Source: an uncultured Planctomycetia bacterium
GTDB taxonomy: Bacteria; Omnitrophota; Gorgyraeia; Pluralincolimonadales; Pluralincolimonadaceae
Length of the DNA stretch: 64,000 nt
Direction: 5' to 3'
Assembly: GCA_964650515.1 (NCBI GenBank)
Contig: CAZYUB010000008.1
Coordinates: 16,126 to 80,125, forward strand
This document shows positions 28,195 to 54,806 of this stretch, one piece after another (the first letter of the stretch is position 1; every line of letters starts with the position of its first letter). A program made the position numbers and the translations under genes. Below the pieces are notes generated by a model, which was not told the DNA's origin, made no database searches, and worked only from the letters and a program-made list of their open reading frames with translations.

Positions 28195-28235
28195 GCGATA
28201 TCCCTCCTGAAACTAAAAAAAGCGCCCTCCCGCTT

Positions 28236-28278
28236 ACACGAGATGGCGGCCCGACCATCGTAATGCCTCCCGGAGCAA
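28236..28278 (-). repeat. conserved leader module copy 1 (CTCCGGGAGG-N6-ATGGTCGGGCCGCCATCT) in the mscS 5' leader
   Basis: 19-nt core identical to the copy at 54801..54820; flanking similarity ~40 nt. Confidence 0.7.
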
Positions 28279-28304
28279 CCTATTTGCCCGGGACCCGATT
28301 ATCC

Positions 28305-28333
28305 ATTATATTGACATCGGATGGACATAGCAA
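28305..28333 (-). promoter_or_regulatory. sigma70-type promoter of mscS leader (TTGCTA-17-TATAAT)
   Basis: Hexamers and spacing. Confidence 0.5.
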
Positions 28334-28353: not shown

Positions 28354-29391
28354 TCAATCCCTGTTGATAAAATGTATCATATCCGTCAGCTTCCCGTAGC
28401 TGTGGAAATCAAAATACATGACGAGCCTCGGAAGATGGGGGTACTCGCCCTTCTCTATCTCTTCCTTCAGCGGGGGCGATAGTTTTATCTCACCCTCCGT
28501 AAGGATACCCTTGAACTTCCTGTTAATGGCTGCCAGCGTCTTATCGGATATCTTCCTGTTCAGGCGCAGGACCGTCCGGCCCGACACATACCTTATCGAA
28601 TGGTATACCCTGTAGAATTCCTCTATCAGCCTGATCGCCTCGTCGGCCGTATTCACTATCCTGAAGAGGCTGAGGTCCTCTTTCTCTATGTACCCGTTCC
28701 TCAGCAGCTCATTGTTCACGAAACGCTTCCAGACCTCCCAATATGTCGAGCCCGCCGGCTCCATCATGATTATCGGCCTCGGCTTCGATTTGCCCGTCTG
28801 TATAAGCGTCAGCATCTCGAATCCCTCGTCATTAGTGCCGAACCCGCCCGGGAATAGGACGGTCGCATCGGTCTCCTTTATGAAGATGAGCTTTCTCGTG
28901 AAGAAATACTTGAAGCTTATTATCTTCTGTTTTTCGTATATGAACGGGTTGGGTTTCTGCTCGAACGGCAGGCGGATGTTAAGCGCGAATTCCATGCCCA
29001 TGTTCGCGCCTTTATTGCCGGCCTCCATTACGCCGGGGCCCCCGCCGGTAACGACCATATACCCCTTGCCGGTTATCTTCCTCGCGAAATCCTCCGCCAT
29101 CTTGTATTCCGCGGAAGAGGGCTTTGACCTCGCCGAACCGAATATCACTGCCTTCTTCACCTGCCTGTACGGCGCGAATATCTTGAACGAATACCTGAGC
29201 TCCTTAAGCGTGTTGTTAACGAGCTTAAGGTCCCCCTTGTCGTCGGATTCACGCCCCAATTTGACGGCGGTGGTGATTATCTCGCGCAGGATAGCCTCCG
29301 TCTCTGTGGAGCATGATTCGCAGGTAAGGTCGTTTATCAACCCGTCGACGCTCTTGTCGCCTATCTTATAATCCCCCGGGATCTTCTTCAT
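28354..29391 (-). CDS. LOG-family (TIGR00730, lysine-decarboxylase-like) nucleotide-binding protein, long type
   Basis: GGGPGVMEAGNKGA and PGGFGTNDE signature motifs. Confidence 0.8.
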   Translation of the reverse strand: MKKIPGDYKIGDKSVDGLINDLTCESCSTETEAILREIITTAVKLGRESDDKGDLKLVNNTLKELRYSFKIFAPYRQVKKAVIFGSARSKPSSAEYKMAEDFARKITGKGYMVVTGGGPGVMEAGNKGANMGMEFALNIRLPFEQKPNPFIYEKQKIISFKYFFTRKLIFIKETDATVLFPGGFGTNDEGFEMLTLIQTGKSKPRPIIMMEPAGSTYWEVWKRFVNNELLRNGYIEKEDLSLFRIVNTADEAIRLIEEFYRVYHSIRYVSGRTVLRLNRKISDKTLAAINRKFKGILTEGEIKLSPPLKEEIEKGEYPHLPRLVMYFDFHSYGKLTDMIHFINRD

Positions 29392-30761
29392 GTCTTTAGT
29401 TTGCCTTCCAGTTCCTTTATTCGCTCCTTAAGCTCTATCATCTTAAGCTCCCTGTCAACGGCTACCCTGTGGAACTTCTCCATGTCGTTCATCTTGTCGC
29501 GCAGTTCCTTCTGCGCCTTCTTGAGCGCCGAGATATCCTTCGCTATATGGACGGACCCCATGAACTCGCCGTTATCATCGTATATCGGCGATGTCGAAAC
29601 GAGCAGCGGCAGTCCTATTCTCGGGTCGAATACCTCTTCCACGTGCGTTTTCTTGTCGACGATTGTGAGCTGGTGCGGGCAGCCCGGCCATGGCTTCTCG
29701 GCCCCATGGATTATCCTGAAGCATTTCTCGCCGATGATATCTTCCGACTTCATTTTTAGAAAATTGGTCAACGCCTTGTTCACCCTCACTATCCTGCTGT
29801 CCTTATCTATGACAAATATAAGGTCCGTAATGGAGTCAAAAGTCGTCGACCAGTCCTTTGCCGCCTTACTTATCTCCTCCTCCGCATCCATCCGCTCCTC
29901 TTCGGTACGCAGGAGCGTCCTTGCGCTCATCATTACGATAATACAGAAGACGACCGCGTTAAAGAACGCGACAAGCGACACTCCGAGCTCATTTTGAATG
30001 ATACCGTATCTTTCTCCCGCCAACTTAAGCCATCCGAAGAACGGCGGCAATATAAGCGCGAACGGCAGGATCTTCCGCAGCATTATGCCCGCGGAAAGGT
30101 CTGAACACATGATCCTCATGAAACCCCTGTTCCCGGACGCAAATATCACGCCTACGGACAACAGCAGGAAAAACACGGCGGTATGCAGCGCCATAGCCGT
30201 AAAGCTATACTGTAAAATATACAGGATCTTTACCCCGAAGATATAACCGATCAGGTTCTGGTAGGCAAGCAATCCTGCAACCGCAGAGACAGCCTGCGCG
30301 GCGTAAATGCTGCGTTCCGTCTTTCCCCGGACCAAGGCCAGGGAAATGTTCAGCAGGATGAAATTTGCCGCTGTGACCGGGGCCATCCTTCCTAAATGCG
30401 TAGTAAGGATAGCGCCGGCAGGCTCCCTGAACAACAGCTGGTCGATACCCAGCTCAACGCCTGCGGCATATTCGATCACCGTCAGGAGCCCTATTATGCC
30501 CGCGGCCAAAGAAGCGGCGAGCGCAATACCTTCGCTTTTATTGTCCCTGCGAGGCCCGGAGGAGATGATATAAAGCGATATACCTGTAAGCATGAAAGCC
30601 AGCGCGGTATTGAACTTCATTGTGACCATGCCCGGAAAGACGCTTTTCAGGATACCGATATCCAGGAACCACCCGGCCAATACGAGGAAACCTCCGCATA
30701 CGGCAAGCAGCGCTGTGGCCACGGAGACATTCCTGTAATTCTTTTCCCTGGCCTCTTTCAT
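29388..30761 (-). CDS. polytopic membrane sensor with cytoplasmic PAS domain and C-terminal coiled coil (no output domain)
   Basis: ~6 TM helices in the first 280 aa, then a PAS fold (SITDLIFVIDKDSRIVRVN...), then a coiled coil. Confidence 0.6.
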   Translation of the reverse strand: MKEAREKNYRNVSVATALLAVCGGFLVLAGWFLDIGILKSVFPGMVTMKFNTALAFMLTGISLYIISSGPRRDNKSEGIALAASLAAGIIGLLTVIEYAAGVELGIDQLLFREPAGAILTTHLGRMAPVTAANFILLNISLALVRGKTERSIYAAQAVSAVAGLLAYQNLIGYIFGVKILYILQYSFTAMALHTAVFFLLLSVGVIFASGNRGFMRIMCSDLSAGIMLRKILPFALILPPFFGWLKLAGERYGIIQNELGVSLVAFFNAVVFCIIVMMSARTLLRTEEERMDAEEEISKAAKDWSTTFDSITDLIFVIDKDSRIVRVNKALTNFLKMKSEDIIGEKCFRIIHGAEKPWPGCPHQLTIVDKKTHVEEVFDPRIGLPLLVSTSPIYDDNGEFMGSVHIAKDISALKKAQKELRDKMNDMEKFHRVAVDRELKMIELKERIKELEGKLKT

Positions 30762-30780
30762 GTCATGCCTCCCTCAGGTT

Positions 30781-32085
30781 TTACCTCAACTCCAGTATGC
30801 GCCAATGCGTATCGTCGTCCTGCATCTCCTCCGTGCGCCCTTCGACGCAGGCGAAGATACTGTCCGGGTATTCCAGCAGCGAGAGCGGCACCCTGAGCGT
30901 TATCGTCCTGGGGCCGTGGTCCGCGCTCACCTCTTTGGATGATAACCTTTTGTGCATGTCCCTGCAATGGAGGCCGTCGGCATCCATCCTTATATGCAGT
31001 TTCGGCATGCCGGAAAATCCCCGTCCTTTTTTGTATCCTATAAGATAAGCCGTAAAATCCCTGTCCACATCCGCCCTTCCCGCCGTCGCCAGGTGCACTA
31101 CGACGCTGCCGTCTTCGATGCCGTATATGCCGCTGCGCCCGCCGTCTTTCATCTTAAGCGGCGCATAATCGCCGAAAAGCTCGTTCCTCCTGGCGAAGGA
31201 AAAGAGGTACGCCGGGTCATACGCCAACTGGCTCTTATAGGCCTTGATGGCATCATGCTTAGTTTTCACGTCCTCCTGCGGCAGGTCGAACGTCCCCCAT
31301 GATACCCGTTTGAACGGGACCGGCGGCTTCAGGCCCAGTTCGGGACGGTACCCTTTCGGCGCGGGCCAGCCCTGGACATGCACGATATAAGGATGCACGG
31401 ACGGCGGCTCGATCGAGCCTTCCGTGTCCCAGAGCGCGACGCGCAGGAAAAGATACAGCGCCTTATGGTCCGGGTTTGAATCCGACGGATGCGAAACAAA
31501 TATGTCGGTAGGCCGGAATTGCGTCAGGATGTCCTCCAGGTCCTTAAGTATGCTCTCGCCGGTATAGGGCGCGCCGCATGAGACCGCCCCGGAATACGGG
31601 ACCTTCGTCTGCTTTGTCAGCATCGCCTCGTAGGGCTTACCGTCGCCCCAGTAGCCCGTGAAGATCGCGAGCGTCCCGAAATCCGGGTAGCCGAGGAATG
31701 ATACATCCTGCGCCCCGAGCCCCATCCCGGACATTGCTGCCAACGTCTCCTTCATCCTCGTCTCCCCCATCGCGATGAGGCCTTTCGCCGACAGGACCGG
31801 GTGCTTCTTATATATAAGGAACGCTATCTCGTTATTGTCGCCGTTGGTCAGGCATACCACTTTTACTTTCGCGCCCGCGCCCAGCGCCTTCTTCATAACC
31901 CCAAAAGCGGCTATCGTCTCGTCGTCGGGATGGGGAGCGAGCACAAGGACCCTGTCGGAACGCTTGAACGTTATATCGTCGGAAGCCAAAGCGGTGACAG
32001 CGCATGACAGGAACAGGATGATGCCCGGTATTATTACGGAAGAGATCTTCGCCACGTCTTTATTATAAGGGCAACGGAATGCCAT
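30781..32085 (-). CDS. PIG-L/LmbE-family N-acetylglucosaminyl deacetylase with N-terminal anchor and ~230-aa C-terminal extension
   Basis: VLAPHPDDETIA motif. Start placed at the internal MAFRCPY so that the gene abuts the upstream stop. Confidence 0.75.
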   Translation of the reverse strand: MAFRCPYNKDVAKISSVIIPGIILFLSCAVTALASDDITFKRSDRVLVLAPHPDDETIAAFGVMKKALGAGAKVKVVCLTNGDNNEIAFLIYKKHPVLSAKGLIAMGETRMKETLAAMSGMGLGAQDVSFLGYPDFGTLAIFTGYWGDGKPYEAMLTKQTKVPYSGAVSCGAPYTGESILKDLEDILTQFRPTDIFVSHPSDSNPDHKALYLFLRVALWDTEGSIEPPSVHPYIVHVQGWPAPKGYRPELGLKPPVPFKRVSWGTFDLPQEDVKTKHDAIKAYKSQLAYDPAYLFSFARRNELFGDYAPLKMKDGGRSGIYGIEDGSVVVHLATAGRADVDRDFTAYLIGYKKGRGFSGMPKLHIRMDADGLHCRDMHKRLSSKEVSADHGPRTITLRVPLSLLEYPDSIFACVEGRTEEMQDDDTHWRILELR

Positions 32086-32086
32086 A

Positions 32087-32902
32087 TCAAGGATTTTCGG
32101 AAATCCGGTGCAAAGGCATATCGAGCAGGGCGGGCCACTTGCGGTCCCAGCCGGAATAATGATTGACGCCTTCCACGGCCGTGATGCTTTCGTGTTTTCC
32201 GTCTCCGGCCTTCTCGGCAAAGGACTCCGCCGCCTCCGGAGGTATTATCCTGTCTTCGTAAGAGATGAAATGCCGCTGCGGGACTCTTTTTAATTTAACC
32301 GCGGCATCGACCGGGTCCAATGACCCTTTTAGCGGGCTTACTTTGTTCTTTCTGCTGACGGCGGCGCTGTCGAGGTTGCCGGCTACCGTGCGCAGGCCTA
32401 TGACATCATCACGGCACGCGGCAATAAGCGCGGCGACAGCCGCCCCTCCGGAATATCCTACCAGGCTGACCTCTCCGGCGCCTGCCATATCGCGCAAGTC
32501 GCTTACCGCCGAATCCATGTCCGCTATGACCTCGGGCGCGAACCTTTTAGACATCCAGTATTTCGCGTCGCAGTCCGACGCTCCTTCCGAAGGATATTGC
32601 CCGGGACGCGCGAGATACGCGACATTCGGCGACGGGTCGAGGGACGCAAGCTTCATGACAAGCTGGCTTGCGGGAGTCGGGTCGGAAGATGCGCGGTACC
32701 GGTCCAGCCACGCGCGGCCGTCCCCTTCTATATATACGGTAAGCGGTTCGCCGGGGCTGGTTACCTTTATGCGGGAATACAGGATAAAATCGCGGCCGCG
32801 TATCAGTTTCTTCGTGAACCCGCTATCGTACCCAGGGTTATACGAGGTGGTCACGCATCCGGAAAGGCAAAATACCGCTATAATCGCGTACAGCGGCCTC
32901 AT
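32087..32902 (-). CDS. lipoprotein, alpha/beta-hydrolase-like (GYSGG nucleophile elbow)
   Basis: Lipobox LSGC; VGYSGGAAVA serine-hydrolase motif. Confidence 0.55.
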   Translation of the reverse strand: MRPLYAIIAVFCLSGCVTTSYNPGYDSGFTKKLIRGRDFILYSRIKVTSPGEPLTVYIEGDGRAWLDRYRASSDPTPASQLVMKLASLDPSPNVAYLARPGQYPSEGASDCDAKYWMSKRFAPEVIADMDSAVSDLRDMAGAGEVSLVGYSGGAAVAALIAACRDDVIGLRTVAGNLDSAAVSRKNKVSPLKGSLDPVDAAVKLKRVPQRHFISYEDRIIPPEAAESFAEKAGDGKHESITAVEGVNHYSGWDRKWPALLDMPLHRISENP

Positions 32903-32905
32903 TTC

Positions 32906-33595
32906 TCACTGTCCCGAGGAATGGCTCTGCAGCGACAGGCTGCAGCCGACCGTCCCCTTTATCAGGACGGGCAGGCGGTCCTTGTCCTTGCTGACCCATA
33001 TCTCGAACTTGTCGGGTTTGCTCGTGAAGTGGTAGGCGGTCACTTTCCTGTCATTGACCTTCACGTCCTCGATGTCGGTAAGAGTGACGGTAAACTCCTC
33101 CTGGAGCCGTATGACCGTGCTCCAACCCACTTCGAGGCCGTCGATACGCCGCAGGCTGAAAGGCAACAGCACGGCGTTATGGTACGGGCTGTCCGATTTA
33201 TATTTGTATTCGTCGGAGACCTTTTCGTTCATGAACTTCTTGATCACGAGGGAGTTGTTCCTGGGGTCGTATTCCTCGATAAGGTGCTCTTTGGCCAGCG
33301 GCCAGCTGATATGCCGCTCGACTATCAGCGGCATTCCGGTCTCCGGGTCGGCATATATCTCTTCGAGGTCGCTGAACCCGGCAAGTTTGGTCCGGAAGGT
33401 CACATGCCAGTACGTCTTGCCCTGGCGTTCTACGAGCCCCATATCCTCATACTCCGCCTTCCCTGCCGGGCTGACGTTATAGATGATCTTCTCGCCCTGG
33501 GATACCGTGGCCGGAATATTGCCGGACACGGCAAGCAGTGACGCCGCTAACATTATATTCAATACCGACTTGCCTTGCATGTCTATCGACCTCAT
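32906..33595 (-). CDS. secreted hypothetical protein (DUF3108-like beta-rich protein?)
   Basis: Signal peptide; 229 aa; no catalytic motif. Confidence 0.45.
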   Translation of the reverse strand: MRSIDMQGKSVLNIMLAASLLAVSGNIPATVSQGEKIIYNVSPAGKAEYEDMGLVERQGKTYWHVTFRTKLAGFSDLEEIYADPETGMPLIVERHISWPLAKEHLIEEYDPRNNSLVIKKFMNEKVSDEYKYKSDSPYHNAVLLPFSLRRIDGLEVGWSTVIRLQEEFTVTLTDIEDVKVNDRKVTAYHFTSKPDKFEIWVSKDKDRLPVLIKGTVGCSLSLQSHSSGQ

Positions 33596-33837
33596 TAACC
33601 GGGATTGCGTTTTGCCCTGACGAGTTCCACCAGCTCGCCCACGGTAGCGACTGCGTCAACCTCTTCATCGGATATTGTGATATTATACTTCTCTTCGATG
33701 TCAATTGCCAGTCTTACTATATCGACGAAATCCATAAAGAGGTGCTCTATCAGAAGGGACTCCGGCAGTATCCTCTCGACCGGCATCTTTATCTGCTCGT
33801 TTATCAGTTCCCTGACCTCTTCGAATAGTGTCTTCAT
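33595..33837 (-). CDS. acyl-carrier-protein-like small acidic protein lacking the phosphopantetheine serine (DSL replaced by DFV)
   Basis: 80 aa; aligns with the ACP helix II region (LFMDFVDIVRLAIDIEEKYNI versus LGADSLDTVELVMALEEEF); the codon at the Ser position is TTC. Confidence 0.6.
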   Translation of the reverse strand: MKTLFEEVRELINEQIKMPVERILPESLLIEHLFMDFVDIVRLAIDIEEKYNITISDEEVDAVATVGELVELVRAKRNPG

Positions 33838-35355
33838 CTAATGGACCATGACCGTCCCTTTATTCTTGACCTCACGGAAGATGAACACGAGGAAGACGCA
33901 TGAAAAAGCTATCATCCCGTAGTATTGGAAGCAATCGATATAGGAAAGAAGCGCTGCCTGGCGCATCAATTCCCTGTAAAGGAGGCCGTCCGCAAGCCCT
34001 GAATACGCTTTCGCCACCTGCTGATATATCTGGTTAAAGGGGTTTAGCTGGCCCACAAGGGCCGCCTGGTGCGCCTGCGCCATGCGGGACAGTATCGTCG
34101 TTGACACCGCAATGCCTACGCTTCCGCCGATATTCCTCATCAGGTTAAAAAGCCCGGAGCCGTTGCCTATGTCACTCGCATGCAGCGTCCCGAAAGCCAC
34201 TATCGATAACGGCACAAAGACCATCATCGTCCCGAAACCCAGGATAAAGAGCGGGACCACCCTCGAATCCATGGAGATCTGCAGGTTGATGTTGCCGAGG
34301 GACAGCGCCGCCAATCCTATTATGACAAGGCCTGCGGCTATCAGGACCTTGTTCTTGAAATAGATACATAGGCGCGAGACCGACATGGCCCCGATAAATG
34401 CCCCTATCCCGAGAGGGACCAGTATTAGCCCGCTTAAATAGGCCGTGTATCCCATCATCGTCTGGTAAAATAGCGGCATGAGCGCCATGACCCCGTACAT
34501 TATCGCGCCGATCATGAAAGCGATGATCATTCCGCCGGTAAGGTTCCTGTCCTTGAGGATGCGCAGGTCAACCACCGGATGCTTCACGCGGAATTCCCAT
34601 ATGATGAACGCGACGAGCGAAACGACGACAACGATCGTCGTCCAGCATATCCACGACGCCTGGAACCAATCCGCCTCCTGGCCCTTGTCGAGTACCAGCT
34701 GAAGCGCGCCGAGGCCCAGGGCCATCAGCGCGAACCCGTAATAGTCGATGCCGGTCCTGGTCTTACGTATGTACGGCGGATCCTCAACGAAGACCTTTGA
34801 CATAATGACCGCTATGACACCAACGGGCACGTTTATGAAGAAGAGCCACCGCCAAGAAAAGTTATCGGTGAGCCAGCCCCCGATGACGGGGCCTATGATA
34901 GGTGCCACTATCACACCCATCGCGAAGACCGCCATGGCTGAGGTGCGTTTCTCCTTCGGGAAACTTTCAAGCAGTATCGCCTGGGAGATCGGCTGGAGGG
35001 CCCCTCCACCTATGCCCTGGAATATACGGAACAAGACCAATTGCCCGAGGCTGCCGGCTATGCCGCAGAGGACCGACGAAATGGTAAACAATGATATACA
35101 GACAAGGAGCACGCGCTTACGGCCGAAAAAACTTCCGAACCATGCCGAGGCGGGCAATATGATGGCGTTCGCGACAAGATAACTCGTTAAGACCCAGGTC
35201 CCTTCATGGGTGGTCGCGGAAAGGTTCCCCGCGATCTGCGGCAAGGCGACATTCGCGATGGATGTGTCGAGGACTTCCATGGTCGCGGCCAGCATGACCG
35301 CAATGCAGATAAGCCACGGATTGCTTTTCGGGCGCCATTCCTCGTGCTGCATCAA
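33838..35355 (-). CDS. emrB: MFS drug:H+ antiporter, 14-TM DHA2 family (EmrB/QacA)
   Basis: 505 aa; MFS motif A; 14 TM helices. Confidence 0.85.
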   Translation of the reverse strand: MMQHEEWRPKSNPWLICIAVMLAATMEVLDTSIANVALPQIAGNLSATTHEGTWVLTSYLVANAIILPASAWFGSFFGRKRVLLVCISLFTISSVLCGIAGSLGQLVLFRIFQGIGGGALQPISQAILLESFPKEKRTSAMAVFAMGVIVAPIIGPVIGGWLTDNFSWRWLFFINVPVGVIAVIMSKVFVEDPPYIRKTRTGIDYYGFALMALGLGALQLVLDKGQEADWFQASWICWTTIVVVVSLVAFIIWEFRVKHPVVDLRILKDRNLTGGMIIAFMIGAIMYGVMALMPLFYQTMMGYTAYLSGLILVPLGIGAFIGAMSVSRLCIYFKNKVLIAAGLVIIGLAALSLGNINLQISMDSRVVPLFILGFGTMMVFVPLSIVAFGTLHASDIGNGSGLFNLMRNIGGSVGIAVSTTILSRMAQAHQAALVGQLNPFNQIYQQVAKAYSGLADGLLYRELMRQAALLSYIDCFQYYGMIAFSCVFLVFIFREVKNKGTVMVH

Positions 35356-36215
35356 CGGACCTTTATCTCTGCGATGACCGACATGCCTACGCCGAGGTCA
35401 TATTTATCGTAGGGTTTGCCGTCGAAGACGATCTTTACCGGAATGCGCTGGACCACTTTCACAAAGTTCCCGGACGCATTCTCGGGAGGGAACATGCTGA
35501 ATTTGGCTCCTGTGCCGCGTTGGATGCTGTCTACGCGGCCATCGAAGACCTTGCCCGGGTATGTATCTATCTTTATCCTGGCCTCCTGGCCGGGCCTGAC
35601 ATTCTTAAGCTGGGTCTCCTTAAAATTGGCGACTACCCACATTTCGTCCGAAACGACCGCCATAAGGCCCTGCCCAGGCTGTATCTGGTTGCCCGACTCG
35701 ACGGACCTTTTCGCCACATGGCCGTCCGCTGGGGCGCATATCTTCGTATATTCAAGGTTGCGCTGAGCGATGTTGAACTGCGCCTCGGCGGCTTCGGCCT
35801 GTGCTTTCGCTAGATTATACGCCGTGACGGAATTCTCATACCTTTCTTTCGGGTATACCTCTTCCTTATATAACGCCTCGGCGCGGTCCCTGTCGCGCGA
35901 CGCCTGCTCAAAAGCCACCTTACGTATGTCCAGGGCCGCCTGCGCCTCTTTTACCCTCAGTTCGTAATCCGCGGGATCGATCTCGACCAGCACGTCCCCC
36001 TTTTTCACGATACGGTTATCTTCCGCGTTCACCGTCCCGACCGTCCCGGGGACTTTTGACGCTATGCTGTGGATCCTTCCCTCGATGTATGCGTCATCGG
36101 TGGAAACGCGGCTTAGGCCGCCTATTACAAAGAGGATGAATACCACGGCGGCAGTACCGCACGCAGCCAGAAATATTCCAAGCAGTTTCGCTTTCTTAAT
36201 GTTTTTCAGGTCCAT
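35352..36215 (-). CDS. emrA: HlyD-family membrane fusion protein (EmrA-like)
   Basis: N-terminal anchor, coiled-coil and lipoyl/beta-barrel domains. Confidence 0.85.
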   Translation of the reverse strand: MDLKNIKKAKLLGIFLAACGTAAVVFILFVIGGLSRVSTDDAYIEGRIHSIASKVPGTVGTVNAEDNRIVKKGDVLVEIDPADYELRVKEAQAALDIRKVAFEQASRDRDRAEALYKEEVYPKERYENSVTAYNLAKAQAEAAEAQFNIAQRNLEYTKICAPADGHVAKRSVESGNQIQPGQGLMAVVSDEMWVVANFKETQLKNVRPGQEARIKIDTYPGKVFDGRVDSIQRGTGAKFSMFPPENASGNFVKVVQRIPVKIVFDGKPYDKYDLGVGMSVIAEIKVR

Positions 36216-37560
36216 TTTTGTTCTCCATTGTCTCGTAGATAAGTGTAAGGTCGATACCCATGGAATACATAAGCCTCGCGTAATTACGCTTCAACTCGTA
36301 ATCCGCGCTGTAATAATTGGTCCGGGCCCTCGTCTGAAGGGTTATCGCCTCAAGCACATCCGTGGGCGTGGCGACTCCCGCCGAATATTTTACGCGGTAT
36401 GCGCGGACGTTCTCGTCTGCCTGCCCGATCGCTTCCGAGGCAACGGAGACCTTTTCGCAGGCATCCTTCAGGCCGAGATGGCTGTCTTCCACCTCGAACT
36501 TGATATCCTCGACCAGCTTTTCCTTCTGTTCCTTTATCTGCTTCTGCAAAGCGCGTTCCTTGAGCAGGTCCGCCCTCGCCGCGCCGCCGTCATAGAGGTT
36601 CATCTTGACCCCGAGGTTTACCGACACGTTGTCCTCGTGGACCAAGTAACTATTTTTCGTGTGGTTATACCCGCCGTCGGCATAAAGGACGGGGAGGTTC
36701 TCTACCGCCTTCGCCCTCTCGCTCGAGACGGACGCTTTTATCCTGTTCTCATAAAAAGATATCTCCGGTCTCTGCTCCTGCGCGATAGCCCAGGCGTCCT
36801 CTATGCCAGGGCACTGCGGCAGTTCCATCTCTATGTCCCGCACAATGAGCTTCTCCCTAAGAGGGAAAGCCAGTATATTATTCAGCCTTGCCACGGCGAC
36901 TTCCCTGCCGTTACGCGCCGCTATCAGTTTTTGTTTGGCGTCGGCGAGCTCCACCTTTGCGGGAAGCAGGTCGTTCTTTACTATGACCCCCTGCTTGAAC
37001 AGGTGTTCCATGTCCTCAATATAGGAATCAAGGTTCTCGACCTCTTTTTCCGCGACATTTATCATCTTTTCCGATTCCAGCAGGTCCAGGTATGCCGTAA
37101 TGAATTCGAGCGTGGCCACGCGTTTAACGCTCTCGCTCCGGGCCTTCGACGCCTCGACCATATCCTTTGACGCACGGTAGTTGGAGAGGCTCTTGCCGAA
37201 GTCGAACAGCGTCTGGTAGACGCTCACGCCGAAAGAATACGGGTTCTTGTCAGAGGTCGGCACCGACACACCCCCGAATTTCATCTCCTGCTTATACCTG
37301 TTGAATGTCTGGACGGCGCCTACATTCAGCTGCGGAAGCATCACTGAACGGGCCATCATCGAGTTCTGGAAAGCCATCTCATCGTCATAGGCCGATATCT
37401 TGACCAACCGGCTGTCCTTCTGCACTATAGCGATCCCTTCCTGGATAGTCAGAAGCCTGCCTTCCTTCCCGGCCGCCTCTTCCCCGCATGCCGGACGTCC
37501 TGTACAAGCGAACAGGGCCAGGAATACGCTTGCCGCTATGATTACCGACTTCCTTGACAT
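36196..37560 (-). CDS. TolC-family outer membrane efflux protein
   Basis: Signal peptide; duplicated OEP repeats. Confidence 0.85.
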   Translation of the reverse strand: MSRKSVIIAASVFLALFACTGRPACGEEAAGKEGRLLTIQEGIAIVQKDSRLVKISAYDDEMAFQNSMMARSVMLPQLNVGAVQTFNRYKQEMKFGGVSVPTSDKNPYSFGVSVYQTLFDFGKSLSNYRASKDMVEASKARSESVKRVATLEFITAYLDLLESEKMINVAEKEVENLDSYIEDMEHLFKQGVIVKNDLLPAKVELADAKQKLIAARNGREVAVARLNNILAFPLREKLIVRDIEMELPQCPGIEDAWAIAQEQRPEISFYENRIKASVSSERAKAVENLPVLYADGGYNHTKNSYLVHEDNVSVNLGVKMNLYDGGAARADLLKERALQKQIKEQKEKLVEDIKFEVEDSHLGLKDACEKVSVASEAIGQADENVRAYRVKYSAGVATPTDVLEAITLQTRARTNYYSADYELKRNYARLMYSMGIDLTLIYETMENKNGPEKH

Positions 37561-37598
37561 ATTGCCGATCCTTCCTTTGTCACATGCTTACTATCAAT

Positions 37599-37635
37599 GG
37601 TGAACGTATACTTCATTTTATGAACCTTTGTTCAT
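37599..37635 (-). promoter_or_regulatory. two tandem TetR-type operator palindromes (ATGAAC-N4-GTTCAT, plus a degenerate copy) just downstream of the tolC -10
   Basis: Sense: TATATT-tctaaa-ATGAACAAAGGTTCAT-aaa-ATGAAGTATACGTTCA. Confidence 0.6.
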
Positions 37636-37641
37636 TTTAGA

Positions 37642-37670
37642 AATATACCATTCATTATGGGTTTTGTCAA
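37642..37670 (-). promoter_or_regulatory. sigma70-type promoter of the tolC operon (TTGACA-17-TATATT)
   Basis: Consensus hexamers with 17-nt spacer, ~80 nt upstream of the tolC ATG. Confidence 0.6.
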
Positions 37671-37700
37671 GATGGATATTTCAGGCGGGGTGATGTACCT

Positions 37701-38315
37701 CTACTTGCCGGATATGCCGTTCAGCAGGCACCTTATTATCATATCGGACATGTCGGCCAGGCTCTTCTTCCCTTTTCCGTCTTCCTTGAACCATTTCATG
37801 ACATATGACTTCATTATCGCGGTAAGTATGTCCAGGATCTGCGTAGGCTCGAAATCCCTGCTTATGACCCCTTCCTTCTGAGCCTGTTTGACTATATCCG
37901 CCATGTACCTTTCGAATTTCTGGCCTGCGGGTGTGCTCCTGAGCCCTTTTTCGGCGAGCATCATTTCATCGGCTTCCGATATGAAGATGCGGAAGAAATC
38001 CAGGTTGTTCTCGAAAAACACGAGGGATTCGCGCACGAACGTCTCCAGCTTACCCTTCGCGTCCTTAGCCGACGACATCTTCTCCTCGACTATCGACAGC
38101 ATCGTCTTCAGCTTTTCCGTGGACAAGGAGAGGTACAGCTCATCCTTATCCTTGAAATGCAGGTAGACGGTGCCGGTAGCATACTGGGCTTCTTTTGCGA
38201 TATCCCTTATCGTCGCCTTGTGGTATCCCTTAAGCGCGAAGATATGCTCCGCCGCCGCGAAGATATCCGATCTTCGCAATTGCCTGTCCCTTTCTTTCCT
38301 GCTGAATCCGGCCAT
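37701..38315 (-). CDS. TetR/AcrR-family transcriptional repressor
   Basis: N-terminal HTH (TIRDIAKEAQYATGTVYLHFKDK). Confidence 0.9.
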   Translation of the reverse strand: MAGFSRKERDRQLRRSDIFAAAEHIFALKGYHKATIRDIAKEAQYATGTVYLHFKDKDELYLSLSTEKLKTMLSIVEEKMSSAKDAKGKLETFVRESLVFFENNLDFFRIFISEADEMMLAEKGLRSTPAGQKFERYMADIVKQAQKEGVISRDFEPTQILDILTAIMKSYVMKWFKEDGKGKKSLADMSDMIIRCLLNGISGK

Positions 38316-38345
38316 TTCGCCTCATTTAGGATAATTTTCAATTAC

Positions 38346-38391
38346 TGAACATCCGTTCATAATATATACCATCCGGCCCCGCCCGTGTCAA
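38346..38391 (-). promoter_or_regulatory. tetR promoter (TTGACA-17-TATATA) with an overlapping operator copy ATGAACGGATGTTCAG
   Basis: Same TGAAC-N4-GTTCA palindrome as upstream of tolC, i.e. autoregulation. Confidence 0.6.
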
Positions 38392-38402
38392 GTTAATAAC
38401 CT

Positions 38403-39485
38403 TTAGGGATGGTGTTTCCTCAGGCGCAGCGCGACATTGACTAGGATTATGAGCGCAGGCACTTCTATCAGCGGGCCGATGACCGTCGCGAAGGCCTGGT
38501 TGGAGCTTATACCGAAGATGGCTACCGCGACCGCTATTGCCAGCTCAAAATCATTGCTGGCCGCGGTAAAAGACACGGCCGTGGTCTGGCCGTAGTTTAT
38601 TCGCATCTTCCTCGCGATGAAGAACGTCGCGAACCACATCACGAAGAAATATATCAACAGCGGTATCGCTATCCTTACCACGTCAAAAGGCATCTGTATT
38701 ATGTACTGCCCCTTCAGCGAGAACATGACGACAATAGTGAACAGCAGCGCAACGAGGGTCAACGGGCTTATCTTCGGGATAAAGACTTCCTCGAACCACT
38801 TCCTCCCTTTCAACCCGATGCCGCCGACGCGCGTAAGCGCTCCCGCAAGGAAAGGGATCCCCAGGTAGAACAGCACGGTCTTCGCCGCGTCTACCATCGA
38901 GATGCTGATATTTACGCCTTTCGCGAGTCCGAGCCATTTCAGCCCGAGCGTAATGAACAGGTATATATACGCGGCATAGAACAGGACCTGGAACAACGCG
39001 TTGAAGGCGACCAGCCCTATCGCGAACTCCCTGTCCCCTTCAGCGAGCTCGTTCCACACGATCACCATGGCGATACAGCGCGCAAGCCCGACAAGTATCA
39101 CGCCTATCATATATTCGGGGCGATCGCGCAGGAACGTTATCGCGAGGACGAACATCAACAGCGGGCCTATGACCCAATTCTGCACGAGGGAAAGCACCAG
39201 CAGTTTCGGCCTGCTGAATACCTTTCCCATCTCCTCGTATTTTACCTTGGCCAGCGGCGGGTACATCATGAGTATAAGCCCTATGGCTATCGGAATAGAG
39301 GTAGTGCCTACCTGCATGCCCGCGATGGCATCGGTGACGTCGGGAGCGAAATAGCCCAACGCTATTCCCGCAGCCATCGCGGCAAATATCAACGGCGTCA
39401 GGAGCTTATCCAGCAGGGATAATTCCCTCTTTATTTCAATGTCTTCATGTTTAGTATAAGGCATATATATAGTATGATCCGGCAA
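38403..39485 (-). CDS. arsenite efflux transporter, ACR3 family
   Basis: 10-TM BART-superfamily protein, collinear with ACR3. Confidence 0.8.
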
Positions 39486-40128
39486 TGATGAATATCGTGC
39501 CTGTGATCATCCTCATGTAATATTCTATGGAAGCCAGGCGCTTGAACCAACGGCCCAGGGATGCCACACCGAGCGATATAGCAAAAGCGAATATAAGGAC
39601 GGGCAATCCCGTGCCGATGCCGTAGACCAGCGGCAGTACGATGCCGTTTTTGCCGTTTATCGCCAAAGGAATGAGGCTTCCGAAAAACAGCGCTGCCGAG
39701 ACCGGGCAAAAGGCGAGAGCGAATACGATGCCCAGGAGAAATGCCCCGGGGATGCCCGCGCCGGCGAGCTTGTCCTGGTCTTTCTGCGAAAGGGAGAATC
39801 CCGGGACCCTGATCTTTATTATCTCCAACAGGACCAGCCCGGTGGCCACAAGCAGCGGTCCAAGCGCGCGGTTCATGTATTTCTGGAGGAACTGCGCTAC
39901 CTGCGGGACGCTCAACAACGAATTGACGAGTATGATCCCTAGTACGGCGTAGGAAACCATCCTGCCCGCCGTATACGCCGCGCCGGAGGCCAGGACCAGC
40001 GCAGGGCGGGATACCTTCTTGGCGATGAACGATATGGCCGCGACATTCGTGGCCAACGGGCACGGGCTTATAGAGGTCAATATGCCCAGCCATAACGCCG
40101 ACCCGATGCCCGCGAGCAACCCGGTCAT
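39451..40128 (-). CDS. DsbD/CcdA-like transmembrane thiol-disulfide transfer protein
   Basis: 6 TM helices; conserved Cys in TM1 and TM4 ([15 protein letters not shown]). Confidence 0.7.
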
Positions 40129-40520
40129 TGCGCCTCCTTCAACAGGGCCGACATTTCTTTTTTGACATAATCGATGAACTTCTGCCTGTTGCCGGAGTAC
40201 TCCCAGATCTTATCGAGGTTCTTCCATTTTATCTCTTTGCTGCCTTTTACCAATGACAACACGAGCGATTTGGTATAAAGCTGGTAGTCCTTAATATAAT
40301 GCCCGTTCTCCTTTTCATCCACATTGACCACTTTAAGGTCCGGCCCTATCGCTTCCTTTGAATATTGCTCCAGCTTATGGCATGTGGGGCAGCGCGCATT
40401 GCCGTGGAAATAATAGGCGACTACATGCGCGGCATCCGCATCTTCCGCCGCGCCCGCCGGCTCCGGAAATACCATGCTTATCGCGGCAAACGCCAGTATG
40501 GCTGTAAACAGTTTTCCCAA
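40125..40520 (-). CDS. secreted thioredoxin-fold protein (CPTC)
   Basis: Signal peptide; CPTCHKLE redox motif. Confidence 0.65.
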   Translation of the reverse strand: MGKLFTAILAFAAISMVFPEPAGAAEDADAAHVVAYYFHGNARCPTCHKLEQYSKEAIGPDLKVVNVDEKENGHYIKDYQLYTKSLVLSLVKGSKEIKWKNLDKIWEYSGNRQKFIDYVKKEMSALLKEAQ

Positions 40521-40530
40521 TCTCCCTCCT

Positions 40531-40764
40531 TTATTTTGATATTATACCCTTTATCTCTTCCCTGCTTAATACTTTCCCGGAGGATACCAGGGTGCCGTCT
40601 ACCGCGAGCGCCGGGGTCATCATCACCCCGTATCCCGTGATCTTATCGATATCGGTGACCTTCGATATCTCGGCGTCAAGGCCGAGCTCCTTTACCGCCG
40701 CCTCCGCGTTCGCCTTGAGCTGGTCGCATTTGAAGCAACCCATTCCTAATATCTCTATCTTCAT
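40531..40764 (-). CDS. small thioredoxin-like protein (redox-active disulfide protein 2 / MTH895-like)
   Basis: 77 aa; GMGCFKCDQ motif. Confidence 0.75.
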   Translation of the reverse strand: MKIEILGMGCFKCDQLKANAEAAVKELGLDAEISKVTDIDKITGYGVMMTPALAVDGTLVSSGKVLSREEIKGIISK

Positions 40765-40773
40765 CTCCCCCTC

Positions 40774-41520
40774 CTATTTGACCGCCCGCACACATATGCT
40801 GGCCACCGAATCATCGGCAGGATAGCCGGACTCTTTTTCCACGCTTACATCGCGGAATCCGGTCTTTTTTACCAAGGACAGGTATTCGTCCTTATTTATC
40901 GCGCCTGAAATGCATCCGACATACGCTTTGACGGATTCCTTTTTCTCCGGCGGAAGCTCTTTTATTAGGACCAGGTCGGAGACCATCATCCTTCCTCCCG
41001 GCTTTAATACCCTGAACGCCTCCCTGAACACGCTTTCCTTGTCGGGCGACAGGTTTATGACGCAGTTAGAGATGACCGCATCGATGCAACCGTCTTCGAC
41101 GGGCAGCTTCTCTATCTCGCCCAGCCTGAATTCGACATTTTTGTAGCCGCCTTTCGCGGCATTTCTCACGGCCTTCTCTATCATCTCCGGGGTCATATCC
41201 ACCCCGATTACCCGGCCGGCGGGGCCGACCCTGCGTGAAGCAAGGAAGGAATCGAAACCCGCCCCGCTTCCGAGGTCAAGGACGGTCTCCCCCTCCTCAA
41301 GTGACGTTATCGCTACGGGATTGCCGCATCCGAGCCCCAGGTTCGCGCCACCGGGAACGGCGTCCATTTCGGCATCGCTGTATCCTACGGACCTGCTAAT
41401 ATCCCGCGCGGCCTGCGCGCCGCCGGAACAACATGAAGATCCCTGACAGCATGAGCTTTCCGTGCGCGCTATCTCGGCGTACCCGTCCCTTACAATCTTC
41501 TTTATATTCTTCTTGTCCAT
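40774..41520 (-). CDS. arsM: arsenite S-adenosylmethionine methyltransferase
   Basis: SAM motif VLDLGSGAG plus N-terminal Cys pairs (CCQGSSCC) and C-terminal Cys, typical of ArsM. Confidence 0.85.
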   Translation of the reverse strand: MDKKNIKKIVRDGYAEIARTESSCCQGSSCCSGGAQAARDISRSVGYSDAEMDAVPGGANLGLGCGNPVAITSLEEGETVLDLGSGAGFDSFLASRRVGPAGRVIGVDMTPEMIEKAVRNAAKGGYKNVEFRLGEIEKLPVEDGCIDAVISNCVINLSPDKESVFREAFRVLKPGGRMMVSDLVLIKELPPEKKESVKAYVGCISGAINKDEYLSLVKKTGFRDVSVEKESGYPADDSVASICVRAVK

Positions 41521-41532
41521 AACGTTTCTCCC

Positions 41533-42972: not shown

Positions 42973-43021
42973 TATGAACATATGTCCATAACAGTATAGC
43001 ATACATGCGGCGGTTGTCAAT
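42973..43021 (-). promoter_or_regulatory. ars-operon promoter (TTGACA-16-TATACT) followed by a 20-bp near-perfect palindrome TTATGGACATATGTTCATAA
   Basis: Palindrome (18/20) lies between the -10 and the GGAGG RBS of the DUF134 gene. Confidence 0.55.
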
Positions 43022-54774: not shown

Positions 54775-54806
54775 AACAAAAAACCACCTGATCTTATATC
54801 AGATGG
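54771..54806 (-). terminator. intrinsic terminator or attenuator hairpin (CCAUCUGAU-AUAAG-AUCAGGUGG followed by UUUUUUGUUUU), 12 nt before the GT4-fusion start
   Basis: 9-bp stem including one G.U pair, then a U-tract. Confidence 0.65.

What the first reader, a model, noticed from the sequence alone, without database searches (positions are those of the whole stretch)
28354..38391. TetR-controlled 9-gene operon coupling a TolC-EmrAB pump to a pseudo-ACP, LmbE deacetylase, hydrolase, PAS membrane sensor and LOG protein
From tolC (37560) down to the LOG gene (28354) all nine genes overlap or abut (gaps -20 to +19 nt), so they form one transcript. This transcript sits behind a consensus promoter with two TGAAC-N4-GTTCA operators; the divergently regulated tetR carries a third copy. 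Tripartite drug pumps are common. A pump co-transcribed with a signal-peptide LmbE/PIG-L deacetylase, a lipoprotein hydrolase, a secreted beta-protein, a Ser-less ACP homologue, a polytopic PAS sensor lacking any output domain and a LOG-family enzyme is not a described unit. It looks like a biosynthesis or export module, or a signalling module, for a surface or secreted metabolite.
Basis: partly seen in the sequence, partly recalled or inferred. Interest (0 to 1): 0.6.

Follow-up and report, generated by a model that had tools for sequence, protein, structure and literature searches.

The report
TetR-controlled efflux pump with envelope genes
An uncultured Omnitrophota bacterium has an ordinary repressor-controlled three-part efflux pump followed, probably on the same transcript, by a set of envelope or lipid-handling genes that only partly recurs in related genomes, so it is a loose lineage-specific neighbourhood rather than a fixed nine-gene machine.

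Summary
The nine genes exist and their family assignments hold. They run from tolC (37560) to LOG (28354) with junctions of -20 to +19 nt. Larger gaps on each side carry regulatory signals. Two details are wrong. tetR is co-directional, not divergent. The tolC promoter has one exact TGAAC-N4-GTTCA site plus a degenerate N5 site. The window comes from a Candidatus Omnitrophota genome in which 50 of 51 genes share a strand and the median gap is 6.5 nt. Abutting genes are therefore weak evidence of shared function.

Synteny is not unique. An eight-gene core recurs in at least five related lineages, and the promoter-operator layout recurs in six. The composition is fluid:
- Most relatives have a patatin phospholipase before the ACP-like gene.
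- Several have a Spy-like gene plus an autotransporter after the hydrolase.
- One relative replaces EmrAB with an RND pump.
- One has tetR and its operator directly before patatin, with no pump.
- The PAS gene occurs in only two lineages.

The best reading is a FadR-like TetR switch driving an amphiphile or fatty-acid efflux pump together with clade-specific periplasmic lipid-handling proteins. The substrate is unknown. Interest is modest.

The parts
38363..38391 (-). tetR promoter, TTGACA (38391-38386) - 17 nt - TATATA (38368-38363)
   Evidence: Read from the sequence. The same layout is present in L011, L013 and L015.
38346..38359 (.). Operator O_R, exact palindrome TGAAC-GGAT-GTTCA, just downstream of the tetR -10 box. 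Implies autoregulation.
   Evidence: An exact palindrome sits at the equivalent position in L011, L013, L015 and in L092, L094. The spacers vary and the half-sites are invariant.
37701..38315 (-). TetR-family repressor, 204 aa, FadR/YsiA-like, co-directional with the pump
   Evidence: PF00440 scores 57.7 bits against a cut-off of 24. The best NCBIfam model is Bacillus-type FadR at 81.8 bits, below its cut-off of 200. The best PDB matches over the full length are 3VPR, 3WHB (named fatty acid metabolism regulator protein) and 1VI0.
37642..37670 (-). Pump promoter, TTGACA-17-TATATT with TG extension (11 of 12 consensus positions)
   Evidence: Conserved in L011, L013 and L015.
37621..37634 (.). 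Operator O1, exact palindrome TGAAC-AAAG-GTTCA, 7 nt downstream of the -10 box
37601..37615 (.). Degenerate second site, TGAAG-TATAC-GTTCA (N5 spacing, one mismatch). Only the right half, GTTCA, is conserved in position in relatives.
36196..37560 (-). TolC-like outer-membrane channel, 454 aa, with signal peptide
   Evidence: PF02321 OEP, 200 bits, two repeats. TIGR01844 scores 142.6, below its cut-off of 225.
35352..36215 (-). EmrA/HlyD-type periplasmic adaptor, short form of 287 aa
   Evidence: HlyD_D23 and HlyD_3 match. TIGR00998 EmrA/EmrK scores 233 bits (cut-off 390.8). The generic MFP model TIGR01730 scores 146.9 bits (cut-off 94.9).
33838..35355 (-). EmrB-type DHA2 MFS permease, 505 aa
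   Evidence: TIGR00711 scores 422.4 bits against a cut-off of 230.2. MFS_1 matches.
33595..33837 (-). Ser-less ACP-like protein, 80 aa, with DSL replaced by DFV
   Evidence: PF00550 scores 32.3 bits. Ser is replaced by Phe or Tyr in all seven full-length orthologues. Among 1.84 billion representatives only two others are close relatives, and both lack the Ser. The 14 next hits that were fetched all keep DSL or DSI.
32906..33595 (-). Secreted DUF3108 beta-barrel protein, 229 aa
   Evidence: PF11306 scores 37 bits. The AlphaFold model has pLDDT 89.8 and is all-beta. Foldseek gives weak hits to DUF1849, VioE, LolA/LolB and YmcC. One paper describes DUF3108 as having a YmcC fold (PMC4364669).
32087..32902 (-). 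Lipoprotein alpha/beta serine hydrolase, 271 aa, with GYSGG nucleophile motif
   Evidence: Lipobox LSGC. S151, D217 and H248 are invariant in 40 homologues. The model has pLDDT 90.3. Structural neighbours are generic esterases and S9 peptidases at TM about 0.6. The family has 3470 homologues, and every source name shown says Omnitrophota/Omnitrophica.
30781..32085 (-). Two-domain LmbE/PIG-L deacetylase, 434 aa, with an N-terminal signal or anchor segment. Predicted periplasmic.
   Evidence: PF02585 scores 85 bits. The AHPDDE-type motif and a downstream PDH motif are present. There are 3197 homologues and the best 120 cover 89-100% of the length. The few with names are Omnitrophota.
29388..30761 (-). 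Polytopic membrane protein with one PAS domain and a C-terminal coiled coil, 457 aa. An accessory, non-conserved member.
   Evidence: Only PAS families match, and the N-terminal 290 aa match nothing in Pfam. The gene is absent from 90 loci. It is present at 74% identity at the same position in L092. It is cleanly deleted in L011, where window 30789-29400 is missing.
28354..29391 (-). LOG-family (TIGR00730) protein with N- and C-terminal extensions, 345 aa. Last gene of the string.
   Evidence: PF03641 scores 89.8 bits. TIGR00730 scores 100.7 against a cut-off of 96.35. The GGGPGVME and PGGFGTxxE motifs are present. The best PDB matches are cytokinin riboside 5'-monophosphate phosphoribohydrolases, E = 2.5e-39.

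Best explanation
This is a TetR-switched efflux operon with lineage-specific cargo genes.

**Proposed mechanism**
- A FadR-like TetR repressor binds TGAAC-N4-GTTCA sites that overlap the start regions of two tandem promoters, its own and the one before tolC.
- When its ligand accumulates, the repressor leaves the DNA. By analogy the ligand is a fatty acyl-CoA, a fatty acid or a similar amphiphile.
- Transcription then runs through tolC-emrA-emrB and, with no room for a terminator or promoter at the junctions, on through six more genes: the Ser-less ACP-like gene, DUF3108, the lipoprotein serine hydrolase, the periplasmic LmbE deacetylase, the PAS membrane protein and LOG.
- The pump expels amphipathic molecules such as free fatty acids or lysolipids across both membranes.
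- The accessory proteins handle or remodel acylated or GlcNAc-bearing envelope lipids in the periplasm. In sister genomes these include a patatin phospholipase and a surface autotransporter.
- The set is a loosely coupled, clade-specific neighbourhood, not an obligate nine-part machine.

**Shown**
- Gene identities.
- Promoter and operator architecture, and its conservation across genomes.
- Recurrence of the core genes and fluidity of the accessory genes.

**Inferred**
- Co-transcription.
- The lipid nature of the inducer and the substrates.
- Any functional hand-off between the enzymes and the pump.
For: **Regulation**
- Each locus carries two exact palindromes at the same two positions, with invariant half-sites and free spacers. 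This holds in the window, L011, L092, L094, L013 and L015.
- In L013 the second site lies before patatin-ACP-like-DUF3108-hydrolase with no pump.

**TetR type**
- The best NCBIfam model is FadR.
- The top PDB matches cover the full length and include one chain named fatty acid metabolism regulator protein (3WHB). That the other top chains (3VPR, 1VI0, 5GPA) are FadR-type acyl-CoA sensors is from memory.

**Pump**
- EmrB passes the DHA2 model cut-off. The adaptor and OEP domains are present.

**Core synteny**
- The core is conserved in at least five lineages. A pump of either type (MFS or RND) always lies immediately upstream of patatin/ACP-like where a pump is present.

**Lipid theme by association**
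- Patatin lies next to the ACP-like gene in L001, L008, L012, L013, L015 and L094.
- DUF3108 relatives lie next to Aas-like AMP-ligase-ACP-PlsC fusions (L053), ACP-PlsC proteins (five loci), an LPS-core cluster (L010, L075) and DUF2062 plus GNAT (18 of 83 loci).
- LmbE relatives lie next to GNAT (L097, L098) or to AMP-ligase-MMPL-DUF1329-DUF1302 (L096).
- The DUF3108 model weakly resembles LolA, LolB, YmcC and VioE barrels.

**Boundaries**
- A 140-nt gap holds the pump promoter.
- A 159-nt gap holds a promoter-like site, an nhaA-I riboswitch and a terminator-like hairpin.
Against: - There are no transcript data.
- Gene packing of this kind is the norm in this genome, so co-transcription does not imply shared function.
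- The conserved relatives are close (GT20 is 86-99% identical) and their flanks are collinear too. Synteny may be inherited rather than selected.
- The TetR misses the FadR equivalog cut-off (81.8 against 200).
- The fold matches are weak for DUF3108 (E about 1e-3, TM 0.49) and non-specific for the hydrolase.
- LOG has no evident link to lipids.
- The window itself lacks patatin.
- In most of the wider hydrolase-family contexts sampled, the hydrolase gene lies next to an autotransporter gene rather than a pump, which points to a different partnership.
- A promoter-like site (TTGATA-17-TATAAT, 32090..32062) lies at the hydrolase/LmbE junction.
Confidence: 0.45

Rival explanations
1. This is packing, not partnership. 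Only tetR-tolC-emrA-emrB form a functional unit, an ordinary repressor-controlled multidrug pump. The six downstream genes are unrelated envelope and housekeeping genes. They sit in the same co-directional string because this compact genome leaves almost no intergenic space.
For: - 50 of 51 genes share a strand, the median gap is 6.5 nt, and other runs of 7-8 abutting genes occur in the window.
- Nearly all genes in about 90 Omnitrophota loci are co-directional.
- Accessory content varies between close relatives.
- The hydrolase, LmbE and DUF3108 families each occur in many other contexts without a pump.
- The flanking arsenic-type and trehalose genes are conserved just as well.
Against: - In L013 the tetR operator and promoter directly precede patatin-ACP-like-DUF3108-hydrolase with no pump.
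- A pump of a different family (RND) occupies the same slot before patatin/ACP-like in L008.
- DUF3108-LmbE adjacency recurs in distant genomes, with DUF3108 only 43-46% identical: L038, L041, L047.
Confidence: 0.3
2. This is a dedicated biosynthesis-export module. The accessory enzymes make or tailor one specific surface or secreted glycolipid or metabolite, and TolC-EmrAB is its dedicated exporter.
For: - The core genes recur with a pump in at least five lineages.
- A distant LmbE relative lies next to an AMP-ligase, an MMPL exporter and DUF1329/DUF1302, a lipid-export-like set.
- LmbE plus GNAT pairs suggest deacetylate-then-reacylate chemistry.
Against: - The string contains no glycosyltransferase, synthase or ligase.
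- The only carrier-protein homologue cannot carry a phosphopantetheine arm.
- The enzymes present are hydrolytic and predicted to be periplasmic.
- The pump can be absent (L013) or swapped for an RND pump (L008).
- A FadR-like repressor fits induction by a substrate better than a constitutive biosynthetic line.
Confidence: 0.15
3. This is a signalling module. The PAS membrane protein senses a signal and LOG makes or degrades a nucleotide-derived messenger that the pump exports.
For: A PAS sensor and a LOG enzyme are adjacent in the window and in L092.
Against: - The PAS gene is missing in L011, L094, L012, L015 and L008, while LmbE-LOG stay adjacent.
- The PAS protein has no output domain.
- LOG passes only the generic TIGR00730 cut-off.
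Confidence: 0.05

Closest known systems
EmrAB-TolC of Escherichia coli and FarAB-MtrE of Neisseria gonorrhoeae (tripartite DHA2 MFS efflux pumps; known substrates recalled from memory)
   Same: All have a 14-TMS-type EmrB permease, an EmrA/HlyD adaptor and a TolC-family channel. Here these are encoded together behind a repressor-controlled promoter.
   Different: - The channel gene is in the operon and comes first.
- The adaptor is about 100 aa shorter than E. coli EmrA.
- The repressor is TetR-type rather than MarR-type (EmrR, FarR).
- Six non-pump genes follow without gaps.
FadR/YsiA-type TetR regulators (chain 3WHB is named fatty acid metabolism regulator protein; assignment of 1VI0, 3VPR and 5GPA to this type is from memory), and by analogy from memory the S. 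aureus TetR-type FarR that controls the fatty-acid efflux pump FarE
   Same: These are the best full-length sequence matches to the TetR here. Like them, it is a small homodimer-type repressor with a short palindromic operator over the promoter.
   Different: The score is below the FadR equivalog cut-off (81.8 against 200 bits). The targets here are a pump and periplasmic proteins, not beta-oxidation genes. The ligand has not been tested.
Acyl carrier protein (AcpP, PF00550)
   Same: It has the same length and the helical PP-binding domain. NCBIfam ACP models give 35-54 bits.
   Different: The phosphopantetheine-attachment Ser is Phe (Tyr in some orthologues) throughout the small clade. It cannot be a covalent acyl carrier. 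In most relatives it pairs with a patatin gene.
LmbE/PIG-L deacetylases (MshB, BshB, diacetylchitobiose deacetylase)
   Same: It has a PIG-L domain with the metal-binding AHPDDE-type motif.
   Different: - It has an N-terminal signal or anchor segment, so it is predicted to act outside the cytoplasm.
- It has an extra C-terminal domain of about 170 aa with no Pfam match.
- It scores far below the MshB and BshB equivalog cut-offs.
- All source names attached to its homologues are Omnitrophota.
DUF3108 / YmcC(GfcB)-like and LolA-like periplasmic beta-barrels
   Same: It passes the Pfam DUF3108 cut-off, is secreted and is predicted to be all-beta.
   Different: No DUF3108 member has an established function. 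The structural similarity to LolA, LolB and YmcC is weak.

Membership tests
Tripartite EmrAB-TolC-type (DHA2 MFS) efflux pump | DHA2-family MFS permease (EmrB type) | tested here: met
   TIGR00711 scores 422.4 bits against a cut-off of 230.2. PF07690 scores 195 bits.
Tripartite EmrAB-TolC-type (DHA2 MFS) efflux pump | EmrA/HlyD-type periplasmic adaptor | tested here: inconclusive
   HlyD_D23, HlyD_3 and the generic MFP model TIGR01730 pass (146.9 against 94.9). The EmrA/EmrK subfamily model TIGR00998 scores 233 against a cut-off of 390.8. The protein is short at 287 aa.
Tripartite EmrAB-TolC-type (DHA2 MFS) efflux pump | TolC-family outer-membrane channel with two OEP repeats | tested here: met
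   PF02321 scores 200 bits over two stretches. TIGR01844 scores 142.6, below its cut-off of 225.
Tripartite EmrAB-TolC-type (DHA2 MFS) efflux pump | Efflux of hydrophobic drugs or fatty acids | not testable with these tools
   Needs genetics or transport assays.
TetR-family repressor with operator control | N-terminal TetR HTH domain | tested here: met
   PF00440 scores 57.7 bits against a cut-off of 24.
TetR-family repressor with operator control | Palindromic operator overlapping the regulated promoters | tested here: met
   Exact TGAAC-N4-GTTCA sites lie just after both -10 boxes. They sit at the same positions in six genomes, with variable spacers. Binding itself was not tested.
FadR (Bacillus-type acyl-CoA-sensing TetR) | Equivalog-level sequence match | tested here: not met
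   NF053878 scores 81.8 bits against a cut-off of 200. The top PDB relatives match only at E about 1e-12.
Acyl carrier protein | PP-binding domain fold | tested here: met
   PF00550 scores 32.3 bits against a cut-off of 20.8.
Acyl carrier protein | Conserved Ser of the DSL motif for phosphopantetheine attachment | tested here: not met
   The motif reads DFV in the window, and DFV or DYV in all orthologues. The 14 fetched non-orthologous hits keep DSL or DSI.
LmbE/PIG-L deacetylase | PIG-L domain with metal-binding motif | tested here: met
   PF02585 scores 85 bits against a cut-off of 28.2. APHPDDE and NPDH motifs are present in the sequence.
LmbE/PIG-L deacetylase | Membership of a characterised subfamily (MshB, Mca, BshB) | tested here: not met
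   Scores are 22-31 bits against cut-offs of 182-277.
LOG / TIGR00730 family | Lysine_decarbox/LOG domain with GGGxGxM and PGGxGTxxE motifs | tested here: met
   PF03641 scores 89.8 bits. TIGR00730 scores 100.7 against 96.35. Both motifs are seen in the translation.
LOG / TIGR00730 family | Cytokinin-activating LOG or PpnN equivalog | tested here: not met
   NF058542 scores 37.6 against 300. NF038390 scores 45.1 against 450.
DUF3108 | Pfam family match and beta-barrel fold | tested here: met
   PF11306 scores 37 bits against a cut-off of 26. The model is all-beta with pLDDT 89.8.
Single nine-gene operon | No room for terminators or promoters at the gene junctions | tested here: met
   Junctions run from -20 to +19 nt. 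The same is true of most of the window.
Single nine-gene operon | One continuous transcript | not testable with these tools
   Needs RNA-seq or RT-PCR across the junctions.
Single nine-gene operon | Same gene set conserved in related genomes | tested here: not met
   Eight of the nine genes recur. No other locus has exactly the nine. PAS, patatin, Spy-like plus autotransporter and pump type all vary.

The most novel reading that the evidence does not exclude
The conserved core is an undescribed Omnitrophota-specific envelope-lipid turnover system. Its parts are a Ser-less ACP-like protein (normally paired with a patatin phospholipase), a DUF3108 periplasmic barrel, a lipoprotein serine hydrolase and a periplasmic two-domain LmbE. 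Acyl or GlcNAc groups are stripped from membrane or prey-derived lipids in the periplasm. The released amphiphiles are sensed by a FadR-like TetR and expelled by a dedicated tripartite pump. The ACP-like protein has been re-purposed as a non-covalent partner or regulator of the phospholipase.
Probability: 0.2. Interest if true: 0.55.

Novelty: new variant of a known kind. Interest (0 to 1): 0.35.

Why it matters
Omnitrophota are widespread and uncultured. Some are reported to be very small cells that depend on or attack other microbes (from memory). Almost nothing is known about how they build or remodel their envelope.

If the accessory genes really work with the pump, the cluster offers three things:
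- an entry point to Omnitrophota lipid handling;
- a first functional context for DUF3108, for a large family of secreted LmbE proteins and for a Ser-less ACP paralogue;
- a compact, testable regulatory switch.

If they do not, the case is a useful caution. In strand-coherent, tightly packed genomes, abutting genes should not be read as functional operons without comparative evidence.

Tried and rejected
- **1049-aa ORF at 43693-46842.** I first took it for an RND transporter, by analogy with L008. Pfam shows it is an autotransporter with PATR repeats.
- **First ORF caller.** My longest-ORF-first caller picked antisense ORFs over DUF3108 and the hydrolase. I replaced it with a dicodon-scored caller.
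- **PAS gene history.** After comparing only L011 and the outgroups, I inferred that the PAS gene was a recent insertion in the window. L092 carries a 74%-identical PAS gene at the same site, and L011 keeps the last ~11 nt of the gene at the junction. The better reading is a deletion in L011.
- **Metagenome scan with the ACP-like alignment.** It could not give a broad census of patatin/ACP-like pairs.
- **PDB sequence searches.** They gave nothing for DUF3108 and only weak generic hits for the hydrolase.
- **Fold searches.** They gave no specific functional assignment for either protein.
- **Literature.** A search for DUF3108 found five papers. The two read gave no function. A search for Omnitrophota plus patatin found nothing relevant.
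- **Ideas considered and rejected.**
  - An aryl-polyene or mycothiol-like biosynthetic cluster: no synthase, ligase or glycosyltransferase genes are present.
  - A toxin-export (HlyCABD-like) system: there is no acyltransferase or ABC exporter.
- **tetR upstream of the RND variant (L008).** I could not check for one, because the locus ends inside the adaptor gene.

Full report
**Source and setting**

The window matches a Candidatus Omnitrophota MAG contig, JBAZJG010000007.1. Proteins are about 97% identical and the DNA is 93.6% identical. A dicodon-scored gene call places 50 of 51 genes on the - strand. The median same-strand gap is 6.5 nt, and 34 of 48 gaps are 20 nt or less. Related Omnitrophota loci are equally strand-coherent. 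Any argument of the form 'the genes abut, so they work together' must be discounted against this background.

**Check of the observation**

Pfam and NCBIfam confirm the labels:

| Gene | Coordinates (- strand) | Key support |
|---|---|---|
| TetR | 37701-38315 | PF00440 |
| TolC-like OEP | 36196-37560 | PF02321 |
| HlyD/EmrA adaptor | 35352-36215 | HlyD_D23, HlyD_3 |
| EmrB DHA2 permease | 33838-35355 | TIGR00711, 422 bits against 230 |
| PP-binding protein, 80 aa | 33595-33837 | PF00550 |
| DUF3108 | 32906-33595 | PF11306 |
| Alpha/beta hydrolase with LSGC lipobox | 32087-32902 | lipobox, GYSGG motif |
| PIG-L/LmbE | likely start 32085, end 30781 | PF02585 |
| Membrane protein whose only domain is PAS | 29388-30761 | PAS families only |
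| TIGR00730/LOG protein | 28354-29391 | PF03641, TIGR00730 |

- The tolC-to-LOG junctions run from -20 to +19 nt.
- The promoter TTGACA-17-TATATT lies at 37670..37642 and matches 11 of 12 consensus positions, with a TG extension.
- Exact TGAAC-N4-GTTCA palindromes lie at 37621-37634 and 38346-38359. Matches at up to one mismatch number 7, against 1.0 expected.

Two details are wrong.
- tetR is on the same strand as the pump, 140 nt upstream, behind its own TTGACA-17-TATATA promoter. It is not divergent.
- The second site at the pump promoter is TGAAG-TATAC-GTTCA, with N5 spacing and one mismatch.

**Boundaries**

The 159-nt gap after LOG contains three features: a promoter-like site (28333..28305), an nhaA-I riboswitch hit (RF03057, 28241-28296, 49.9 bits against a gathering score of 37) and a hairpin followed by a T-run (28235..28220). 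They sit just before the MscS-OtsA-OtsB-DUF5752-TreT genes. The next unit therefore has its own control. The tolC-to-LOG string is a genuine gap-delimited block. Whether it is one transcript cannot be tested here.

**Regulatory architecture is conserved**

Six genomes each carry two exact palindromes: the window, L011, L092, L094, L013 and L015. One lies just after the tetR -10 box and one just after the -10 box of the next promoter. The half-sites are invariant and the 4-nt spacers vary freely. The degenerate second site keeps only its GTTCA half, at a fixed distance.

In L013 the gene after the second promoter is patatin, not tolC. The TetR switch there drives patatin-ACP-like-DUF3108-hydrolase directly. 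This is the strongest evidence that the accessory genes belong to the regulon.

**Synteny**

tblastn of the window proteins against 95 fetched loci gave the following orders.

| Locus (ACP-like identity) | Gene order |
|---|---|
| L011 (98%) | As the window, but without the PAS gene |
| L092 (95%) | tetR-tolC-emrA-emrB-ACPl-DUF3108-hydrolase-Spy-like-autotransporter-LmbE-PAS (74%)-LOG |
| L094 (89%), L012 (86%) | Patatin between emrB and ACPl; an autotransporter after the hydrolase; no PAS |
| L013 (82%) | tetR-patatin-ACPl-DUF3108-hydrolase; no pump |
| L001 (72%) | MFS-patatin-ACPl-DUF3108-autotransporter x2-hydrolase, then unrelated genes |
| L015 | tetR-tolC-emrAB-patatin-ACPl-RR-HK-RR-hydrolase-ankyrin-DUF3108-LmbE-LOG |
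| L008 | As L015, but behind an RND pump with its OEP |

- No other locus has exactly the nine genes.
- The flanks are collinear too: the arsenic-type genes upstream and MscS-trehalose downstream.
- The PAS gene gave no hit in 90 loci.
- Relative to L011, the window has an extra 1390 bp (30789-29400) that holds exactly this gene.
- L092 has the gene at the same site, and the L011 junction retains the last bases of the gene. Deletion in L011 is therefore the simplest history.

**Individual proteins**

*ACP-like protein*
- It has Phe, or Tyr in some orthologues, in place of the DSL serine. This holds in all seven full-length orthologues.
- A scan of 1.84 billion cluster representatives found only two other close relatives, both Ser-less. 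The 14 next-best hits that I fetched keep DSL or DSI.
- It is a small, clade-restricted ACP paralogue that cannot carry a phosphopantetheine arm.
- It is retained at 98% identity even where patatin is absent.

*DUF3108 protein*
- The model is a confident all-beta barrel with pLDDT 89.8.
- Foldseek matches to DUF1849, VioE, LolA, LolB and YmcC are weak, with best E = 1e-3 and TM 0.49.
- One paper describes DUF3108 as YmcC-fold outer-membrane beta-barrel proteins of unknown function (PMC4364669).

*Hydrolase*
- The model has pLDDT 90.3.
- S151, D217 and H248 are invariant.
- Structural neighbours are generic esterases and S9 peptidases.
- The family is large, with 3470 hits. All source names shown are Omnitrophota/Omnitrophica.
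- In most sampled contexts the gene lies next to an autotransporter gene.

*LmbE*
- The two-domain form is also a large family, with 3197 hits. The few that carry names are Omnitrophota.

*TetR*
- The best matches over the full length are FadR-type regulators, below equivalog level.

**Guilt by association in distant genomes**

- The commonest neighbours of DUF3108 are DUF2062 and a GNAT acyltransferase, in 18 of 83 loci.
- Other DUF3108 contexts are an Aas-like AMP-ligase-ACP-PlsC fusion with an alpha/beta hydrolase (L053), GtrA-domain plus ACP-PlsC proteins (five loci) and an LPS-core cluster (L010, L075).
- LmbE lies next to DUF3108 in L038, L041 and L047.
- LmbE lies next to GNAT in L097 and L098.
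- LmbE lies next to AMP-ligase-MMPL-DUF1329-DUF1302 in L096.
- The recurring theme is acyl-lipid and envelope metabolism. This is suggestive but indirect.

**Interpretation**

The most likely reading (about 0.45) is an ordinary kind of device with a lineage-specific extension. A FadR-like TetR autoregulates and represses a tripartite MFS pump. By read-through it also represses a set of mostly periplasmic, hydrolytic proteins that handle lipids or glycolipids. The inducer and substrates are probably fatty-acyl amphiphiles.

From memory, EmrAB-type FarAB exports fatty acids in Neisseria, and a TetR-type FarR controls a fatty-acid pump in S. aureus. These are functional analogies, not tested memberships.

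The rivals are as follows.
- **Packing only (0.3).** It is weakened by L013, by the RND swap and by the recurrent DUF3108-LmbE pairs.
- **Dedicated biosynthesis-export line (0.15).** It is weakened by the absence of any synthase and by a carrier protein that cannot carry.
- **PAS-LOG signalling module (0.05).** It is weakened by natural loss of the PAS gene.

**Verdict**

- The cluster is a new variant of a known kind: a TetR-controlled tripartite efflux operon.
- Its most unusual elements are the clade-restricted Ser-less ACP paralogue, which is usually paired with patatin, and the secreted LmbE.
- Interest is modest at 0.35.

Noticed in passing
window 28241-28296 (-), with 28305-28333 and 28220-28235: An nhaA-I RNA hit (RF03057, described from memory as a Na+ riboswitch class) scores 49.9 bits. 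A promoter-like site precedes it and a terminator-like hairpin follows. It sits directly upstream of an MscS channel and a trehalose set (OtsA-like GT20 with an N-terminal membrane domain, trehalose phosphatase, DUF5752, TreT). This suggests salt-responsive control of osmoprotectant genes.
   Followed up: partly
window 54801-54859 (-): A second nhaA-I hit (45.2 bits) lies upstream of a 763-aa GT4 glycosyltransferase (52483-54774) and a GH130-family protein (51044-52486). This may be another compatible-solute or glycoside operon under the same riboswitch class.
   Followed up: partly
window 29400-30789, compared with L011 12806/12807: There is a clean 1390-bp indel containing exactly the PAS membrane gene between two genomes that share 93.6% DNA identity. 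L011 keeps the last ~11 nt of the gene, fused to the LmbE end, and preserves the ATGA stop/start overlap with LOG.
   Followed up: yes
window 43693-46842 and 43027-43680 (-): A 1049-aa autotransporter with PATR repeats is followed by a secreted 217-aa ankyrin-repeat protein. In relatives the hydrolase family of this finding usually lies next to such autotransporter genes. In L008 and L015 the ankyrin gene lies between the hydrolase and DUF3108.
   Followed up: partly
window 38403-42959 (-): An arsenic-type resistance string lies directly upstream of tetR: a DUF134 regulator, an ArsP-like permease, a SAM methyltransferase, small thioredoxin-like proteins, a DsbD-like protein and an ACR3/SBF transporter. 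A near-palindrome, TGAACATATGTCCA (42975-42988 as listed), lies 16 nt upstream of the DUF134 gene. The same near-palindrome recurs at the same place in L011.
   Followed up: no
L012 5470-5856, L013 11537-11923, L092 11758-12162: A small secreted protein of about 130 aa contains an LTDxQ motif that I read as Spy/CpxP-like. It has no Pfam hit. It lies between the hydrolase and an autotransporter in several relatives and is absent from the window.
   Followed up: no
window 19834-21150 (+): This is the only gene called on the + strand in 64 kb. It encodes 438 aa with no Pfam match and overlaps both neighbours. It may be a real orphan or a miscalled antisense ORF.
   Followed up: no
window 62001-64000: GC content drops to 0.374 in the last 2 kb, against about 0.51-0.57 elsewhere in the window.
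   Followed up: no
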